Below are positions 29,912 to 38,149 of a stretch of 64,000 nucleotides of DNA, one piece after another. The notes below the pieces were generated by a model. The model did not search any database and was not told the DNA's origin. It worked only from the letters and a program-made list of their open reading frames with translations. Within the stretch, counting starts at the first letter, position 1. Every line of letters begins with the position of its first letter. This DNA comes from the human T2T-CHM13v2.0 reference genome, Homo sapiens, in assembly GCF_009914755.1 (NCBI RefSeq), contig NC_060935.1, one strand, 5' to 3'. The position numbers were made by a program, and so were the translations under genes.

Positions 29912-29989
29912 ATGATTCTATTGAATAATTCTGAGCAGCTGCTGGCCCTATTCAAATCTTTAGCAAGGAGCATTCCTGAGTCCCTGAAG
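29912..29989 (+). CDS. GLYATL1P4: GLYATL1-family coding exon 1 (exon starts 29870): [26 protein letters not shown]
   Basis: Acceptor TTCTCTTCAG|29870; ACAAAATGA Kozak context; donor AAG|GTGAAG. Confidence 0.9.
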
Positions 29990-32900
29990 GTGAAGGAACA
30001 GTGGGAGGTTGGGGTATGGGAGTAGGGGTGTTGAGGATGAGAAAATAACAGGCCCAAGAATCTCGTCCTTCCTGACTTTGTGCAGAGGGTTGGAGCTGGG
30101 AAACAGGATGGGGTTGGGGACAAAGGAGGCATGTTAAGAGCTGCTGCTTCTCCTCGGCAACAGGCAACTAGGCCGACTCTGCAGATTTTATCACTCATTT
30201 GGAGAGGTGGTGAAGAATGGTGGCTACGAACATCGGTTTGGGGCCAGATTCAATAAATATGCATTGCAAGGCTGCCATTTTTTAGTCAGATATCATTGTG
30301 CCTGTGTCTTTAGCTTTCTATGCCTTTATCTTTGGTCTTTTCATTAATAAAATGGGAATAATATTAGTAGCCACCTATTAAAGTTGTTGTGGACACTGAA
30401 TGAATCCATACAATATAAGTGCTAAGTGCATTGTCAAGTGCCCAGCTACTGCACAGTAGCTCTGTGGTATCACAAGGACACCTCCCTGGGAGTTCTGCCT
30501 GTTTGCTGGTGACTTCACGTCCATCAGTATGGTCCTGGAGATGCTGCTCATCACACTATCACCAACTTGGTCCCAGTGCTGTCTCCTGACTTCCATTTTT
30601 CTCTTCCTCTTCACATACAGACCCCCATCTCTGGGGATCTCAACCTCTCCTATTCCCTTTCATCCCTCCTTCAGGTGTATGGCTCTCTGTTTCACATCAA
30701 TCACGGGAACCCCTTCAACATGGAGGTGTTGGTGGACTCCTGGCCCGGGTATCAGATGGTTATTATCCGACCTCAAAAACAGGTAGGCACACAGACAGGG
30801 ACTGGTGGAGCCAGGCAGGTCCAAAGGGCCTGAGGAAATGTCCAATTCAGACACCATGGCTGCTTTCATAGGGTGAAAGGAAATGTGAGTATTTTAAAAC
30901 ACTCCTTCGTTAATGAGCAGCTTGCATGAATGCCACATGTTACCACTCTTCCCGTAAGCATAAGACTAATTTGGGAAAGGGGTTCAAGGGGGAAGGGGAG
31001 GAAAAGGACAAAGCTGACACTCACAGATTAAGGGCCCTTTGAGGTGGCAGGGGTCACCTGCAGGGGCTGAATGGAGGCCAATTTACAGGGAAAGTTGTGT
31101 GTCTGAGATATCAGAACAGTGATTTAGAAACAAAAACCAAGGGAGTAGTCTACCAGCAAAATTACCTCTCATGGCCAGGCATGGTGTCTTTTACCTGTAA
31201 TCCCAGCATTTTGGGAGGCCAAGGCAGGAGGATCGCTTGAGGCCAGGAGTTTGGGACCTGCCTGTGCAACATAGTGAGACCTCATCTCTACAAAAAAATA
31301 AACAAAATTAGCAGTGCATGGTGGTACATGCCTATACTCCTAGATGCTCAGGAGATGGAGATGGGAGGATGGCTTGAGCCCCAGAAGGTTGAGGCTGCAG
31401 TGAGCCAAGATCACACCACTCTACTCTAGCCTGGCCAACAGAGTGAGACCCTGTCATAAAAAAATAAAAGTTGCTTCTCAGGAACCAGGGAAGGGGCACA
31501 CAATTACTGTGTGTCAACTGTTTGGAAGCACCTCACTCATTAGTGACTGTCATCATCAGAACAATTTTACAAAGTGAGCTTTAATATCTTCAATTTAGAG
31601 ATGAGGAAACAACACTGAGAAATATTAAGTCCTGTAGCTGCTGGATACCAACTGTTAAAGCATTCCCCAATCTGAATTCAAGTTCAACGGACTCTGCCAC
31701 TTTTACTAGCTATATAACCATAGGCCCTTCTGTGAGTTTTATCATCTGTTAAAATGGGAAAAATTGGAGGACACTCTTCAGAGGATCACAGAAGGTTTAA
31801 ATGAGATACCATATGTCAAACACTTAGTACATAGCACATAATTCTAAATAGTATTTACCATAATTAGCCATTGTTGGCCGAGGAAACACAAGGTATACAC
31901 GATTAAGCTGAAATAGTAATACAAACCTAGGTCTATTTTTTGGCCCTAAAGGCTTCCCCTTTTTGTATCTGTTTCATGCACATCTGGTTAGTGAACTGAA
32001 GCCTCATGGCCAGCCCAGCTTCAGGTGGGTATAGACGCTGAGCCCCCACATAATAATAAGCTGAGCCTAACACCTTCCCAGGGATGTTCTTTTGATCTCA
32101 AGGTTTCCTGACAATTTCAGATGGAAGATTAATGCTTAGTTTATTTGATCCATGGTCCAATTTCTTCAAAGTGTGATATGCTAAATAACTGTATGAGGTC
32201 AAATAGTTCTTTTTACTTCAGTAACTTTGTAGTTACTATGTGTATTTTAACAATGTAACTGCACCATCAAGCTGTAACTTCATATATGCATTGCTTTGAA
32301 CAAGGCTAGTTTTTATAAAGTGAGTCAGTAAACAAAAATATTAAAATATAAAAGTTCCATGCCACACATACATGACCAAAAAAATGGAAAGAATGAAATA
32401 TGCTGCAATTTACTTGGAAATACATTCACCTAGTCTGATTCCATAGTATACCACGTTTCTTTCAGTATTGAAAATCGATGCAATTTTGAAGAAGACCTTT
32501 TTAAGGTGAGATGCAGGAGAATTTCTCTAGAAAAAAATTAATTTTTTCTTTCTTGGTTTTTAATCAGAAAGATAATATATGCTGATTATACAAGTGGAAA
32601 AATCCAATATGATTTTAAGAAGTTAATAACCTCTCACCTCCTTTGCCCTCCTCTCCTCCATTCCTACCCTTTGGGGTAATCAGTGTCCTTGCCCATATTA
32701 ACACACAAACTGTCATCACTTTTTAATTTGCCTTTGACATATGGACATTGCTTTGAGTGAATCAATACAGCACTAACGTTTTCGTTTTAGTAACTGTGGT
32801 GTTCCATAGAGTCAATGCAATGCTAGTCAGTCATTCTCCTCCTGTTGGGTTCAAATTGTTCATACTTCTTTGCCATTACAAACAATGCTTCAGTAAACAT

Positions 32901-35900: not shown

Positions 35901-38149
35901 TAAAATTAGTTACACTATTTTCTCTTTTACTCCTTAACGATAAAATTTTCAACATGATATTAATACATTCACTGCTAAAACTCTCACACTTATTGTTTAT
36001 ATTTCCCCTGATAAACAGATACACATCGTCCCATGAAGTTTGTGGCTTGTCAGAATGGGATCACAAGTCTCTTTCTTTAAAACCCATGAGTCCAACACCA
36101 CATAAATTGTGCAGAGTGCTACCGAAAATTCAGTTACTTCATTCTATTTTGTGGGCTTCTGGCTGTAAAGGCCATGTCACTCTTCAAAGAGGCTGATATC
36201 CTGTAGCCTTGGGAAAAGGCAATGTCTCCTTAATGTTTCTATTCACTAAAGTATCTTGCTCAAACCCTGGACACTGCAGATTCTAAAACAGTATAGATTG
36301 TAGGTGTCTGGTGAAACAGTAGGCACTAAAACTTAGAGAAATCACAGTTAAATTCATCTTGTGCCAAGTTTAAGAACTTAACCCTATCAACACGGACTCA
36401 GTACAACGCAGAATATGTCCCACAGGGGGTTATGTGGGGCACAGTATATATAACAGGGGGATATGTGTGGTCCAGGAGGTGAGAGAAGCAGGGAGAGAAG
36501 CAATTGTTGCATTCCTTTGCTTCTGCTGGGCGCTCTGTGATGCTATATATAAAATAAGGTAAGTGTGCGGTTGAGTGGGTAGGGAGAAAGGTGAGGCATC
36601 TTAAGGCCTGGTGGAAGGTGACTGATTTCATCCTGTCTTTGTTATGCATCTGATAAGCAGGTTTATAACCAGTACCTGTCAGTGTTCAATATTTAACAAA
36701 CTCCAGTTAAACAGGTAAGAGGTCAGCAGTAGCTTATAGGCCTTGGTTCTATTATCCATGTGCCCAACTGCAGCCATCGTGGGCTGGTGTTAAAATTTTC
36801 CTTTCAATTGTCATTTTTCTAATAATTGCAATCAGTGAGAGGAGAAGAAAAAGTTCAAGGGAATGACCTGACCTTTCACCATCCTACACAGGAGATGACT
36901 GATGACATGGATTCATACACTAATGTATATCGTATATTCTCCAAAGACCCTCAAAAATCACAAGAAGTTTTGAAAAATTCTGAGATCATAAACTGGAAAC
37001 AGAAACTCCAAATCCAAGGTAACAAGTCTGAAGAAATGGGCAAGCAGCTGTGCTTCTCAAATTGTGTCTTCAACTAACAGCATTAGCATCACCTGAGAGC
37101 TCATTAGAAATGTAAATTCATAGAAACTCTCTGAGCTGGGAGAGGTGGAGCAATCTGTGGTGTGCCAAGGACTATAGCTGATTGTGGTGTAAACTCAACT
37201 TTGAAAACTACTAAGCACTGAGGTATTAATCAGGTGGGAGCAATGTAAGTAGAGAACTGCATGTCTGACAATATTGCTTTCTTGGCTTTCTCTCAGGTTT
37301 TCAAGAAAGTTTAGGTGAGGGGATAAGAGCAGCTGCATTTTCAAATTCAGTGAAGGTAGAGCATTCGAGAGCACTCCTCTTTGTTACGGAAGATATCCTG
37401 AAGCTCTATGCCACCAATAAAAGCAAGCTTGGAAGCTGGGCTGAGACAGGCCACCCAGATGACGAATTGGAGAGGTACAAAAAACATGTGCTGATCATTT
37501 ATAATTGCTATTCCTTGTACATTTTTGTAATTCACATAAATCAGTTTTGGAATGAAGAGACGATGAATTCATTCCTTGGGATGAATAAAGGTTGTCAATG
37601 GTCAAAATACGCCACTTTGCAATGGTGGGTCTTTTAACAAGAAGAGGGCCTGGGATCTCTAGAATGGAAGGGCACCTAGAAATTACAGGAGTGGGGATGA
37701 AAGTTGTTGTCTTTCTTTTTGTTTTCTACAGCGAGACTCCCAATTTTAAGTATGCCCAGCTGAATGTGTCTTATTCTGGGCTGGTAAATGACAACTGGAA
37801 GCTAGGGATGAATAAGAGGAGCCTGCATTACATCAAGCGCTGCCTAGGAGCCCTGCCAGCAGTCTGTATGCTGGGCCCAGAGGGGGTCCCGGTCTCATGG
37901 GTAACCATGGACCCTTCTTGTGAAATAGGAATGGGCTACAGTGTGGAAAAATACCGAAGGAGAGGCAACGCGACACGGATGATGGTGCGATACATGAAGT
38001 ATCTGTGTCAGAAGAATATTCCATTTTACGGCTCTGTGCTGGAAGAAAATCAAGGCGCCATCAGAATGAATAAGGCACTAGGTTTCCTTGAGGCCTCCTG
38101 TCAGTGGCACCAATGGACCTGCTACCCACAGAATCTTGTTCCGTTGTAG
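29912..38149 (+). CDS. GLYATL1P4: GLYATL1/GLYATL1B-like glycine/glutamine N-acyltransferase, spliced 302 aa: join(29912-29989,30675-30782,36892-37018,37297-37474,37732-38149). Probably the locus annotated GLYATL1P4
   Basis: 78+108+127+178+418 = 909 nt = 302 aa + TAG, no internal stop, all introns GT-AG with matching phases (0,0,1,2). The protein [40 protein letters not shown]...[14 protein letters not shown] is clearly GLYATL1-family. Paralog identity is inferred from its position before a second duplicon. Confidence 0.85.
30675..30782 (+). CDS. GLYATL1P4: GLYATL1-family coding exon 2: [36 protein letters not shown]
   Basis: CCTCCTTCAG| acceptor, CAG|GTAGGC donor. Confidence 0.93.
31173..31469 (+). 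mobile_element. AluJ-like, intronic
   Basis: GGCCAGGCATGGTG...GGAGGATCGCTTGAGGCCAGGAG...A tail. Confidence 0.9.
34735..35343 (-). mobile_element. Short 5'-inverted (twin-primed) L1PB-like insertion in the intron
   Basis: Antisense 3'UTR 34735-35030 joined to a sense ORF2-end segment 35031-35343 whose outer end (GAGCTGGAGGCCATAATT) abuts the start of the antisense part in the L1 consensus. Confidence 0.75.
36892..37018 (+). CDS. GLYATL1P4: GLYATL1-family coding exon 3: [42 protein letters not shown]
   Basis: CTACACAG| acceptor, CAAG|GTAACA donor. Confidence 0.93.
37297..37474 (+). CDS. GLYATL1P4: GLYATL1-family coding exon 4: [36 protein letters not shown]...GHPDDELE
   Basis: TTTCTCTCAG| acceptor, GAG|GTACAA donor. 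Confidence 0.93.
37732..38149 (+). CDS. GLYATL1P4: GLYATL1-family coding exon 5 (GNAT C-terminal domain): [10 protein letters not shown]...[22 protein letters not shown]...YPQNLVPL*
   Basis: TTTTCTACAG| acceptor; GNAT acyl-CoA motif A RRRGNA; TAG at 38147-38149. Confidence 0.93.

What the first reader, a model, noticed from the sequence alone, without database searches (positions are those of the whole stretch)
29912..38149. GLYATL1 paralog at a probable pseudogene locus has a fully intact 302-aa ORF
Seen: five exons splice with canonical GT-AG sites and correct phases into 909 nt with no stop or frameshift, an A at -3 of the ATG, and poly(A) signals downstream. Known: GLYATL1 and GLYATL1B are about 302 aa. 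The Glu in MDPSCE aligns with the proposed GLYAT catalytic base (MDQTGE), and GNAT motif A (RRRGNA) is present. Inference: this is the upstream copy of the GLYATL1B duplicon, which I recall being annotated as pseudogene GLYATL1P4, so it may be an overlooked protein-coding acyltransferase.
Basis: partly seen in the sequence, partly recalled or inferred. Interest (0 to 1): 0.75.

Follow-up and report, generated by a model that had tools for sequence, protein, structure and literature searches.

The report
Intact GLYATL1-like gene labelled a pseudogene
The locus annotated as pseudogene GLYATL1P4 carries a complete, unbroken five-exon gene for a 302-residue acyltransferase that looks as coding-capable as its neighbour GLYATL1B, but whether it makes a working protein is still unproven.

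Summary
Exons 29912-29989, 30675-30782, 36892-37018, 37297-37474 and 37732-38149 join through GT-AG sites into 909 nt and 302 aa with no stop or frameshift.

The locus is the proximal copy of a ~40 kb tandem segmental duplication. Its distal copy holds the annotated coding gene GLYATL1B. The two CDSs differ at 22 nt and 15 aa. All eight splice sites, the ATG context and three poly(A) signals are identical or equivalently placed.

Polarised with GLYATL1, P4 has 6 derived CDS changes (3 nonsynonymous) and GLYATL1B has 13 (10 nonsynonymous). Both noncoding lineage rates are about 1.6%. Under neutrality P4 would stay intact with probability ~0.07.

Against function:
- Selection tests are weak.
- Gene conversion between the copies is evident.
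- Human P4 has unique changes at two conserved residues, E51G and A208V.
- The P4-like chimpanzee protein is 270 aa and fast-evolving.

The RNA is a known prostate-cancer marker (PMC3691249).

Verdict: coding-competent and transcribed; currently functional with odds near even. Interest is moderate.

The parts
28543..28693 (+). Putative 5' UTR exon, 151 nt, ending in donor AAG|GTAAGC
   Evidence: The RefSeq pseudogene span starts at 28543 (hub table). The donor is at 28693. The same exon is read as coding N-terminus in the orangutan and macaque predicted proteins P0001 and P0003. The exon boundaries in human are inferred.
29870..29989 (+). Exon holding the start codon: acceptor at 29870, CDS 29912-29989 (26 codons, phase 0)
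   Evidence: The joined 193-nt 5' UTR (28543-28693 plus 29870-29911) contains no ATG. Pfam Gly_acyl_tr_N positions 1-26.
30675..30782 (+). Coding exon 2, 108 nt. Holds residue 51, Gly in P4 where relatives have Glu or Asp
36892..37018 (+). Coding exon 3, 127 nt
37297..37474 (+). Coding exon 4, 178 nt, identical to GLYATL1B. It lies inside a 317-nt mismatch-free run, 37244-37560
37732..38149 (+). Coding part of the last exon, 418 nt, stop TAG at 38147-38149. Encodes the catalytic GNAT domain with Glu228 and the P-loop RRRGNA. Holds 17 of the 22 differences from GLYATL1B
38150..38530 (+). Proximal 3' UTR with poly(A) signals at 38193, 38397 and 38507. The annotated pseudogene span runs on to 39194
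   Evidence: GLYATL1B has signals at the same relative positions (82004, 82208, 82318).
38435..38483 (-). Exon of the lncRNA GLYATL1-AS1, antisense to the P4 3' UTR region
   Evidence: Hub annotation table only; not tested here
18330..57635 (.). Proximal copy of a ~40 kb tandem segmental duplication, holding P4
   Evidence: six megablast blocks pair it with window-equivalent 58207-101019. Identity is 95.2-96.4% for four blocks and 93.0% and 87.2% for the last two.
58207..64000 (.). Start of the distal duplication copy, which continues beyond the window to GLYATL1B and FAM111B
28470..29002 (.). Probable gene-conversion tract between the two copies: 4 mismatches in 533 nt against ~3.5% background
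   Evidence: The tract is not more conserved against GLYATL1 (10-17% divergence), so conversion is likelier than constraint.

Best explanation
GLYATL1P4 is an unprocessed, complete duplicate of the GLYATL1B-type gene. It was made by a ~40 kb tandem segmental duplication. The age, roughly that of the human-orangutan split, is inferred from ~1.6% per-lineage noncoding divergence.

The locus keeps every sequence feature needed to be expressed as an mRNA and translated:
- an upstream non-coding exon with no ATG in the inferred 5' UTR;
- five coding exons with canonical splice sites;
- a stop in the last exon, so nonsense-mediated decay is not expected;
- poly(A) signals downstream.

The predicted 302-aa product is a two-domain GLYAT-family acyl-CoA:amino-acid N-acyltransferase. 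Its C-terminal GNAT domain would bind acyl-CoA at the R-x-x-G-x-A P-loop and use Glu228 as general base. Like GLYATL1, it has Gly and Ser in place of bovine GLYAT Arg228 (glycine carboxylate clamp) and His263 (dyad partner). It would therefore behave as a GLYATL1-type enzyme (glutamine or other acceptor), not a glycine-specific one.

I judge it most likely a real, or until recently real, coding paralog that is called a pseudogene for lack of evidence rather than because of a lesion.

Shown: gene anatomy, duplication, family membership, residue mapping. Inferred: transcript structure, translation, activity, substrate class.
For: 1. The ORF and all splice sites are intact.
2. All four donor 9-mers, all four acceptor 23-mers and the 15-nt start context are identical to those of the annotated coding GLYATL1B. 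The poly(A) signals are equivalently placed.
3. In the whole genome, 6 of 11 last-exon matches are open. The other five open matches are not annotated pseudogenes: the hub table names two of them as GLYATL1 and GLYATL1B, and I assign the remaining three to GLYAT, GLYATL2 and GLYATL3 from recall. The five matches with in-frame stops include GLYATL1P1.
4. Polarised by GLYATL1, the P4 lineage has 6 CDS changes in 909 nt where 14.6 are expected from its own noncoding rate of 124/7734 (Poisson p 0.01). Synonymous changes (3) match the neutral expectation. Nonsynonymous changes number 3 against 11.4 expected. GLYATL1B has 13 changes, 10 of them nonsynonymous.
5. In the protein tree the P4 branch is 0.0146 and the GLYATL1B branch 0.0418.
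6. The probability of staying intact under neutrality is 0.074 for P4, and about 0.008 for both copies together.
7. Old World monkey proteins of 302 aa (P0002, P0003) are sister to the ape P4/1B clade, so the lineage is an old, maintained gene.
8. The RNA exists. GLYATL1P4/PCAT-80 is one of the 22 Decipher markers (PMC3691249, passages), and it was selected again in an RNA-seq signature (PMC6858606, passage).
9. Pfam domains are complete, the match to 7PK0 has E 8e-26, and the catalytic Glu is kept.
Against: 1. RefSeq and HGNC call the locus a pseudogene (hub table).
2. Pairwise dN/dS against GLYATL1B is 0.73 (16 N, 6 S), indistinguishable from 1.
3. Three three-state sites, and sites 744/745 where the outer paralogs match GLYATL1B, could add up to 5 nonsynonymous changes to P4. 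The deficit then weakens to p 0.06-0.2. Fisher tests of P4 against GLYATL1B are not significant (p 0.15 and 0.32).
4. Interlocus gene conversion is visible. The tract 28470-29002 and five mismatch-free runs over 230 nt are seen where 0.6 runs of 200 nt or more are expected. One is a 317-nt run across exon 4 and its intron flanks. A selected neighbour could therefore keep P4 intact for free.
5. Human P4 alone has Gly51 and Val208. At position 51, 14 of the 17 other sequences have Glu, one Asp, one Lys and one a gap, and bovine GLYAT has Asp. At position 208, all 17 others have Ala.
6. The chimpanzee protein that shares P4's derived Met247 ends after residue 270 and differs from P4 at 9 of 270 residues. 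That is about the neutral expectation, suggesting no recent constraint. Its orthology and its truncation could not be checked at the DNA level.
7. There is no translation or peptide evidence. The strand and paralog specificity of the published expression signals were not examined.
Confidence: 0.47

Rival explanations
1. P4 is an unbroken but functionless duplicate. It lost its role after the duplication, or more recently, and its ORF survives by chance and by gene conversion from GLYATL1B. Its RNA, where seen, acts at most as a non-coding transcript.
For: - P(intact | neutral) of 0.07 is not small enough to exclude chance.
- Conversion tracts exist between the copies.
- Exons 1-4 differ at only 5 of 491 nt, and the flanking intron around exon 4 is equally clean.
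- Pairwise dN/dS is 0.73.
- Gly51 and Val208 are unique at conserved sites.
- The P4-like chimpanzee protein is truncated and fast-evolving.
- The curated label is pseudogene, and the published literature treats the RNA as non-coding.
Against: - Conversion lowers the counts of both lineages, but the asymmetry of 6 against 13 CDS changes contrasts with a symmetric noncoding count of 124 against 119.
- P4's synonymous count is neutral while its nonsynonymous count is low.
- Exon 5, where most differences lie, shows no conversion yet has no lesion.
- No indel separates the two copies anywhere in 36000-39000.
Confidence: 0.38
2. P4 is a polymorphic pseudogene. The CHM13 haplotype happens to carry an intact allele, while the reference on which the pseudogene label was based, or many other haplotypes, carry a disabling variant.
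For: Only indirect evidence. The label persists although GLYATL1B, formerly also numbered as a pseudogene (recalled, not checked), was upgraded. Only one haplotype was examined here. Ren et al. stress copy and allele polymorphism in such duplications (PMC13639854, section 6 read).
Against: No other haplotype could be read, so nothing here points to a lesion. The asymmetry in annotation can also arise from evidence pipelines that credit only one of two near-identical copies (inference).
Confidence: 0.1
3. The roles are the reverse of the labels. P4 carries on the ancestral GLYATL1B-type function, and the annotated GLYATL1B is the decaying or neofunctionalising copy.
For: - GLYATL1B has 10-13 derived nonsynonymous changes against 10.9 expected under neutrality.
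- Its protein branch is 2.9 times longer.
- At 9 of the 15 differing residues (77, 208, 248, 249, 251, 273, 293, plus 9 and 196), orangutan and/or GLYATL1 side with one copy. For all of these except 208 it is P4 that keeps the older state.
Against: - The numbers are small and the tests non-significant.
- GLYATL1B is reported as Iso-Seq-supported with only a changed UTR (PMC13639854 Table 1).
- It is listed in a plasma proteomics table (PMC11921541, passage), though peptide specificity is unknown.
- Its clustered changes sit at acyl-pocket positions, which fits adaptation rather than decay.
Confidence: 0.2

Closest known systems
[quoted passage not shown]
   Same: Both have five coding exons, 909 nt and 302 aa. 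Splice sites, start context and poly(A) signal layout are identical. Identity is 97.6% at nt level and 95.0% at aa level. Both copies share ~11.5 kb of upstream sequence, including the upstream exon.
   Different: The proteins differ at 15 residues, 12 of them in the catalytic domain. Two of these are pocket-aligned positions: 248 (M/I) and 273 (A/V). P4 keeps more ancestral states. P4 has the unique Gly51 and Val208. P4 is labelled a pseudogene and lies next to a truncated rather than a complete FAM111B.
GLYATL1 (glutamine N-acyltransferase; phenylacetyl-CoA plus glutamine preferred, per PMC9932296 passages)
   Same: Same exon structure and length. The catalytic Glu is kept, with Gly at the bovine Arg228 position and Ser at the bovine His263 position. 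dN/dS against P4 is 0.40.
   Different: dN 0.087 and dS 0.22. Noncoding divergence on the GLYATL1-plus-stem branch is 9.2%. A ~30-nt hyper-divergent patch covers codons ~271-281. Pocket-aligned residues differ (I229 vs V, G264 vs I, A273 vs S). The P-loop's last position is Ala in P4 and Met in GLYATL1.
Bovine GLYAT, PDB 7PK0/7PK1/7PK2 (PMC12509317)
   Same: Two GNAT-like domains. The C-terminal 129 residues align without gaps (E 8e-26). Glu226 corresponds to P4 Glu228. The P-loop and beta-bulge region are alignable.
   Different: Arg228, essential for glycine binding (R228A is inactive), is Gly230 in P4. His263 of the Glu-His dyad is Ser265. Pocket residues Met227, Ile246, Ser262 and Met271 are Ile, Met, Gly and Ala in P4. 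P4 is therefore not expected to be a glycine/benzoyl-CoA enzyme (inference).
Segmental-duplication pseudogenes reclassified as coding (Ren et al. 2026 preprint, PMC13639854)
   Same: P4 is an annotated pseudogene in a high-identity duplication with an intact ORF, no predicted nonsense-mediated decay, and published RNA evidence. That is the class of which the preprint reclassified 236 of 672 (abstract, section 6 and Table 1 read).
   Different: Whether GLYATL1P4 is among the 236 or among the 436 'ORF not detected' is in Supplementary Table 5, which could not be read.

Membership tests
GLYAT family (Pfam Gly_acyl_tr_N PF06021 plus Gly_acyl_tr_C PF08444) | Both family domains present and complete | tested here: met
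   The exon translations cover N-domain profile positions 1-201 in order, with three of five pieces above the 31.2-bit cut-off on their own. The C-domain is covered 1-89 of 89 at 128.9 bits (cut-off 27).
GLYAT family | Catalytic general-base Glu (bovine Glu226) | tested here: met
   Ungapped alignment to 7PK0. The role of Glu226 comes from PMC12509317.
GLYAT family | GNAT P-loop (R/Q-x-x-G-x-G/A) for the CoA pyrophosphate | tested here: met
   RRRGNA at residues 239-244 aligns to the bovine P-loop region. The paper describes Ala-X-Gly in bovine GLYAT.
Glycine-specific GLYAT (EC 2.3.1.13) | Arg228 salt bridge to the glycine carboxylate, and the Glu-His263 dyad | tested here: not met
   P4 has Gly230 and Ser265 at these positions, as does GLYATL1. 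It should not be filed as a glycine N-acyltransferase proper.
GLYATL1-type glutamine N-acyltransferase | Clusters with GLYATL1 paralogs and shares their active-site substitutions | tested here: met
   80% identity to GLYATL1 in the last exon. Tree. Same Gly and Ser at the two bovine positions.
GLYATL1-type glutamine N-acyltransferase | Acyl-CoA:glutamine transferase activity | not testable with these tools
   Needs recombinant protein and a DTNB or LC-MS assay, as in PMC9932296.
Unprocessed pseudogene | Disabling lesion: stop, frameshift, lost start or lost splice site | tested here: not met
   None in this haplotype. Other haplotypes were not available.
Unprocessed pseudogene | Neutral evolution (dN/dS about 1, CDS rate equal to intron rate) | tested here: inconclusive
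   Pairwise dN/dS is 0.73. The P4 branch has 3 N and 3 S, plus up to 5 ambiguous N. The CDS rate is 0.66% against 1.60% noncoding (p 0.01 to 0.2).
Protein-coding gene | Spliced sense mRNA from this paralog | not testable with these tools
   The literature shows a GLYATL1P4/PCAT-80 signal in prostate tumours. Its splicing, strand and paralog specificity were not seen.
Protein-coding gene | Translation: paralog-specific peptides or ribosome footprints | not testable with these tools
   Discriminating tryptic peptides were computed. No data were available here.

The most novel reading that the evidence does not exclude
The labels may be the wrong way round. GLYATL1P4 would then be the conserved continuation of the catarrhine GLYATL1B-type enzyme, and the annotated GLYATL1B the fast-changing copy. 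The clinical 'non-coding' Decipher marker GLYATL1P4/PCAT-80 would be an mRNA for a sixth human GLYAT-family acyl-CoA:amino-acid N-acyltransferase. The two copies diverge mainly at residues lining the acyl pocket (248, 273 and the 271-281 patch), so the duplication would have produced enzymes with different substrate ranges.
Probability: 0.2. Interest if true: 0.6.

Novelty: new member of a known kind. Interest (0 to 1): 0.42.

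Why it matters
If P4 is translated, humans have one more phase-II conjugating enzyme of the GLYAT family, with pocket residues unlike those of GLYATL1 or GLYATL1B. A marker in a widely used prostate-cancer test would then be a protein-coding mRNA rather than a non-coding RNA.

The case also shows how annotation can treat two near-identical duplicates unequally. Here the 'pseudogene' shows fewer protein changes than the 'gene'.

If P4 is not translated, it is an ordinary unbroken young duplicate, one of hundreds in human segmental duplications.

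Tried and rejected
- my first acceptor search range missed exon 2 and gave no combination. One search widened the range and worked.
- a local alignment suggested a compensated frameshift between GLYATL1 and P4 in exon 5. A five-paralog MAFFT alignment is ungapped and shows a ~30-nt hyper-divergent patch instead, so I dropped the frameshift reading.
- Conserved block 28470-29002: I first took it for a constrained promoter or exon. It is not conserved against GLYATL1, so gene conversion is the better reading.
- the three-way alignment downstream of about 29300 is unreliable (about 50% mismatch to GLYATL1, caused by an insertion). I did not use it.
- a Monte-Carlo simulation timed out. One search replaced it with an exact per-site calculation.
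- the supplements of PMC13639854 were unreadable, so P4's status in that study is unknown.
- a search for 'GLYATL1P3' found 0 papers.
- PMC6042310 had no usable passage.
- The 'GLYATL1P4' search listed 10 papers, none with the term in title or abstract. I read passages of two. Neither discusses coding potential, and I cannot say the idea is absent from print.
- Not attempted: structure prediction, because the spliced protein is not a contiguous window translation and the sequence match to 7PK0 already gives the residue mapping; codon-model likelihood tests, because no PAML and no ape DNA were available.

Full report
**1. What is in the sequence**

On the + strand of the window there are five exons: 29912-29989, 30675-30782, 36892-37018, 37297-37474 and 37732-38149. 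They join through canonical GT-AG introns into a 909-nt frame of 302 codons plus a TAG stop.

I enumerated all GT and AG sites near the expected boundaries. Of 16 open combinations, this is the one that matches the family's length. The splice dinucleotides and their contexts are shown.

- The start codon has A at -3.
- ATTAAA at 38193 and AATAAA at 38397 and 38507 follow the stop.
- The exon translations tile Pfam Gly_acyl_tr_N positions 1-201 in order and cover Gly_acyl_tr_C completely, at E 8.4e-38.

**2. Where it lies**

The window is contig C11:58962001-59026000 of the held assembly. The hub's table names the locus GLYATL1P4, a pseudogene spanning 28543-39194.

A self-comparison of 112.7 kb around the window shows a tandem segmental duplication. 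Window 18330-57635 pairs with window-equivalent 58207-101019 in six blocks, at 95.2-96.4% identity for the first four and 93.0% and 87.2% for the last two.

Projecting the five P4 exons onto the distal copy gives an open 302-codon frame. Its first and last bases (73481 and 81960) are exactly the annotated span of the coding gene GLYATL1B. The RefSeq GLYATL1B model on this assembly therefore spans exactly the CDS, and its architecture is the one found in P4.

**3. How alike the two copies are**

The two CDSs differ at 22 of 909 nt and 15 of 302 residues, with no indel. All four donor 9-mers, all four acceptor 23-mers and the 15 nt around the ATG are identical. The three proximal poly(A) signals sit at equivalent places.

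Both copies share about 11.5 kb upstream of the ATG. This includes a 151-nt segment, 28543-28693, that ends in a consensus donor (AAG|GTAAGC). An acceptor lies at 29870, 42 nt before the ATG. The 193-nt leader joined from these pieces has no ATG.

This upstream segment appears as the N-terminus of predicted orangutan and macaque proteins (P0001 and P0003), so it is used as an exon in relatives. Its use in human P4 is inferred.

**4. Chance and selection**

Over 15,932 aligned bases around the gene, the copies differ at 3.50%, with 47 gap openings.

With GLYATL1 as outgroup:

| Lineage | Noncoding substitutions | CDS changes | Synonymous | Nonsynonymous |
|---|---|---|---|---|
| P4 | 124/7734 (1.60%) | 6 | 3 | 3 |
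| GLYATL1B | 119/7734 (1.54%) | 13 | 3 | 10 |

Three further nonsynonymous sites have three states and cannot be assigned.

Against its own noncoding rate, P4 is expected to show 14.6 CDS changes and 11.4 nonsynonymous ones (Poisson p 0.010 and 0.004). GLYATL1B is at the neutral expectation of 10.9.

These figures are fragile:
- Giving P4 the three ambiguous sites raises p to 0.06.
- Also giving it sites 744 and 745, where two outer paralogs match GLYATL1B, raises p to 0.2.
- Fisher tests of the two lineages against each other give p 0.15 and 0.32.
- Pairwise dN/dS is 0.73.

P4-lineage indels in noncoding DNA number 17 in about 8,200 columns, of which I counted 15 as disrupting (not a multiple of three, or 20 nt or longer). 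That predicts 1.66 disrupting indels in the CDS. Combined with stop-gain, start-loss and splice-base loss, the chance of an intact gene under neutrality is 0.074 for P4 and 0.107 for GLYATL1B, or about 0.008 for both.

At least one copy has very probably been under constraint. For P4 alone the case is suggestive only.

**5. Gene conversion**

The block 28470-29002 has 4 mismatches in 533 nt with sharp edges, and it is no better conserved against GLYATL1 than its flanks are.

Five mismatch-free runs longer than 230 nt occur where 0.6 runs of 200 nt or more are expected. One is a 317-nt run (37244-37560) covering exon 4 and parts of both flanking introns.

Exons 1-4 differ at 5 of 491 nt (p 6e-4 against 3.5%), while exon 5 differs at 17 of 418. 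Conversion between the copies can therefore account for part of the low exon divergence, and could help keep an unselected copy open.

**6. Relatives**

A database search with the last exon found 15 primate proteins at E 1e-20 or better among 35 candidates.

P0008, a chimpanzee protein named 'putative GLYATL1B', has 270 aa. It is 261/270 identical to P4 and 256/270 to human GLYATL1B, shares P4's derived Met247, and lacks nearly all GLYATL1B-derived states. It is probably the P4 ortholog (inference). It ends after residue 270 and differs from P4 at 9 residues, which is roughly what neutrality predicts. I could not check its DNA.

Among the 18 aligned sequences, human P4 alone has Gly51 and Val208:
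- At position 51, 14 of the other 17 have Glu, one Asp, one Lys and one a gap. Bovine GLYAT has Asp.
- At position 208, all 17 others have Ala.

In a FastTree of all 18 sequences, the P4 branch is 0.0146 and the GLYATL1B branch 0.0418. Old World monkey proteins P0002 and P0003 are sister to the ape P4/1B clade with support 0.85. No rows were dropped, and several rows carry alternative N-termini that align poorly.

The GLYATL1B-type lineage therefore predates the ape duplication.

**7. Predicted protein and mechanism**

The last exon aligns without gaps to residues 167-295 of bovine GLYAT (7PK0, E 8e-26). I read the whole main text of the structure paper, PMC12509317. Mapped onto P4:

| Bovine GLYAT residue | Role | P4 residue |
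|---|---|---|
| Glu226 | Catalytic base | Glu228 |
| His263 | Dyad partner | Ser265 |
| Arg228 | Glycine-carboxylate clamp | Gly230 |
| Met227 | Acyl pocket | Ile229 |
| Ile246 | Acyl pocket | Met248 |
| Ser262 | Acyl pocket | Gly264 |
| Met271 | Acyl pocket | Ala273 |

GLYATL1 also has Gly and Ser at the Arg228 and His263 positions. P4 would therefore work like GLYATL1, which prefers phenylacetyl-CoA and glutamine (PMC9932296, passages), and not like GLYAT.

Two of the 15 P4/GLYATL1B differences fall on two of the four named pocket positions (248 and 273). The differences in exon 5 form two tight clusters at 37969-37992 and 38058-38074. The second cluster lies in a ~30-nt patch that is already hyper-divergent from GLYATL1. 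This pattern fits divergence of substrate range, but that is a post hoc inference.

**8. Expression in print**

GLYATL1P4/PCAT-80 is marker 21 of the 22-marker Decipher classifier, where it is listed as a non-coding transcript (PMC3691249, passages). It was chosen again in an RNA-seq signature (PMC6858606, passage), and PCAT-80 is reported as up-regulated in tumours (PMC4416928, passages). I did not see the strand, the splicing or the paralog specificity of these signals. An exon of the antisense lncRNA GLYATL1-AS1 lies in the P4 3' UTR region (hub table).

A 2026 preprint reassessed 672 pseudogene models in segmental duplications with long-read cDNA and reclassified 236 as coding. It lists GLYATL1B under 'changed UTR' (PMC13639854: abstract, section 6 and Table 1). 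Its supplementary tables, which would name P4's fate, could not be read.

**9. Verdict**

GLYATL1P4 is coding-competent by every sequence criterion I could test, and on the available counts it is better conserved than the neighbour annotated as coding.

Current function remains open. I put it near 0.47, against 0.38 for a functionless survivor and 0.1 for a haplotype-specific intact allele. The reversed-roles reading (0.2) is a sharper version of the first and overlaps with it.

In kind it is a possible new member of a known enzyme family, within a class of loci now known to be common (mislabelled duplicates in segmental duplications). Interest is moderate.

Noticed in passing
window 49500-57635 (paralog of window-equivalent 92207-101019): The proximal duplication copy ends inside a copy of the 5' part of FAM111B. 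The annotated FAM111B start (94411) maps to about window 50682. Just upstream of that point, 49500-50999 is GC-rich (0.49-0.64) with CpG o/e 0.47-0.67. The supplied table lists no FAM111B-like feature here. Identity to the true FAM111B 5' region is lower (93.0% and 87.2%) than in the rest of the duplication.
   Followed up: partly
window 37969-37992 and 38058-38074: The differences between P4 and GLYATL1B in exon 5 form two tight clusters: 6 in 24 nt and 5 in 17 nt. They overlap codons aligned to the acyl-pocket residues Ile246 and Met271 of bovine GLYAT. Most are derived in GLYATL1B. At two adjacent sites GLYATL1B matches older pseudogene paralogs, hinting at a micro-conversion.
   Followed up: partly
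window ~38050-38080 (CDS codons ~271-281): A ~30-nt patch is hyper-divergent between GLYATL1 and the P4/1B lineage, with no length change. GLYATL1P1 resembles GLYATL1 here, so the burst of change happened on the P4/1B stem.
   Followed up: partly
window 36000-39000: No indel separates the two duplication copies over 3 kb spanning exons 3-5, their short introns and the 3' UTR. The locus-wide rate is 47 gap openings per ~16 kb, which predicts about 9.
   Followed up: no
L010 (GLYATL1) against the window CDS: On the GLYATL1-plus-stem branch the CDS has diverged as much as noncoding DNA (9.46% against 9.19%), and dS (0.22) exceeds intron divergence. The family evolves fast even where it is clearly functional.
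   Followed up: no
G000 C11:58640968-58945677 and C6:49368670: The last-exon search found 11 GLYAT-family matches in the genome. Five have in-frame stops and six are open. P4 is the only open one that is annotated as a pseudogene. Naming of the matches beyond GLYATL1, GLYATL1B and GLYATL1P1 is from recall.
   Followed up: partly
P0001, P0003, P0005, P0006 (primate predicted proteins): Several predicted isoforms read the upstream exon (human 28543-28693) as coding and join it to a short segment upstream of the usual ATG, bypassing the first 26 codons. I did not work out how this splice arises or whether it occurs in human.
   Followed up: no
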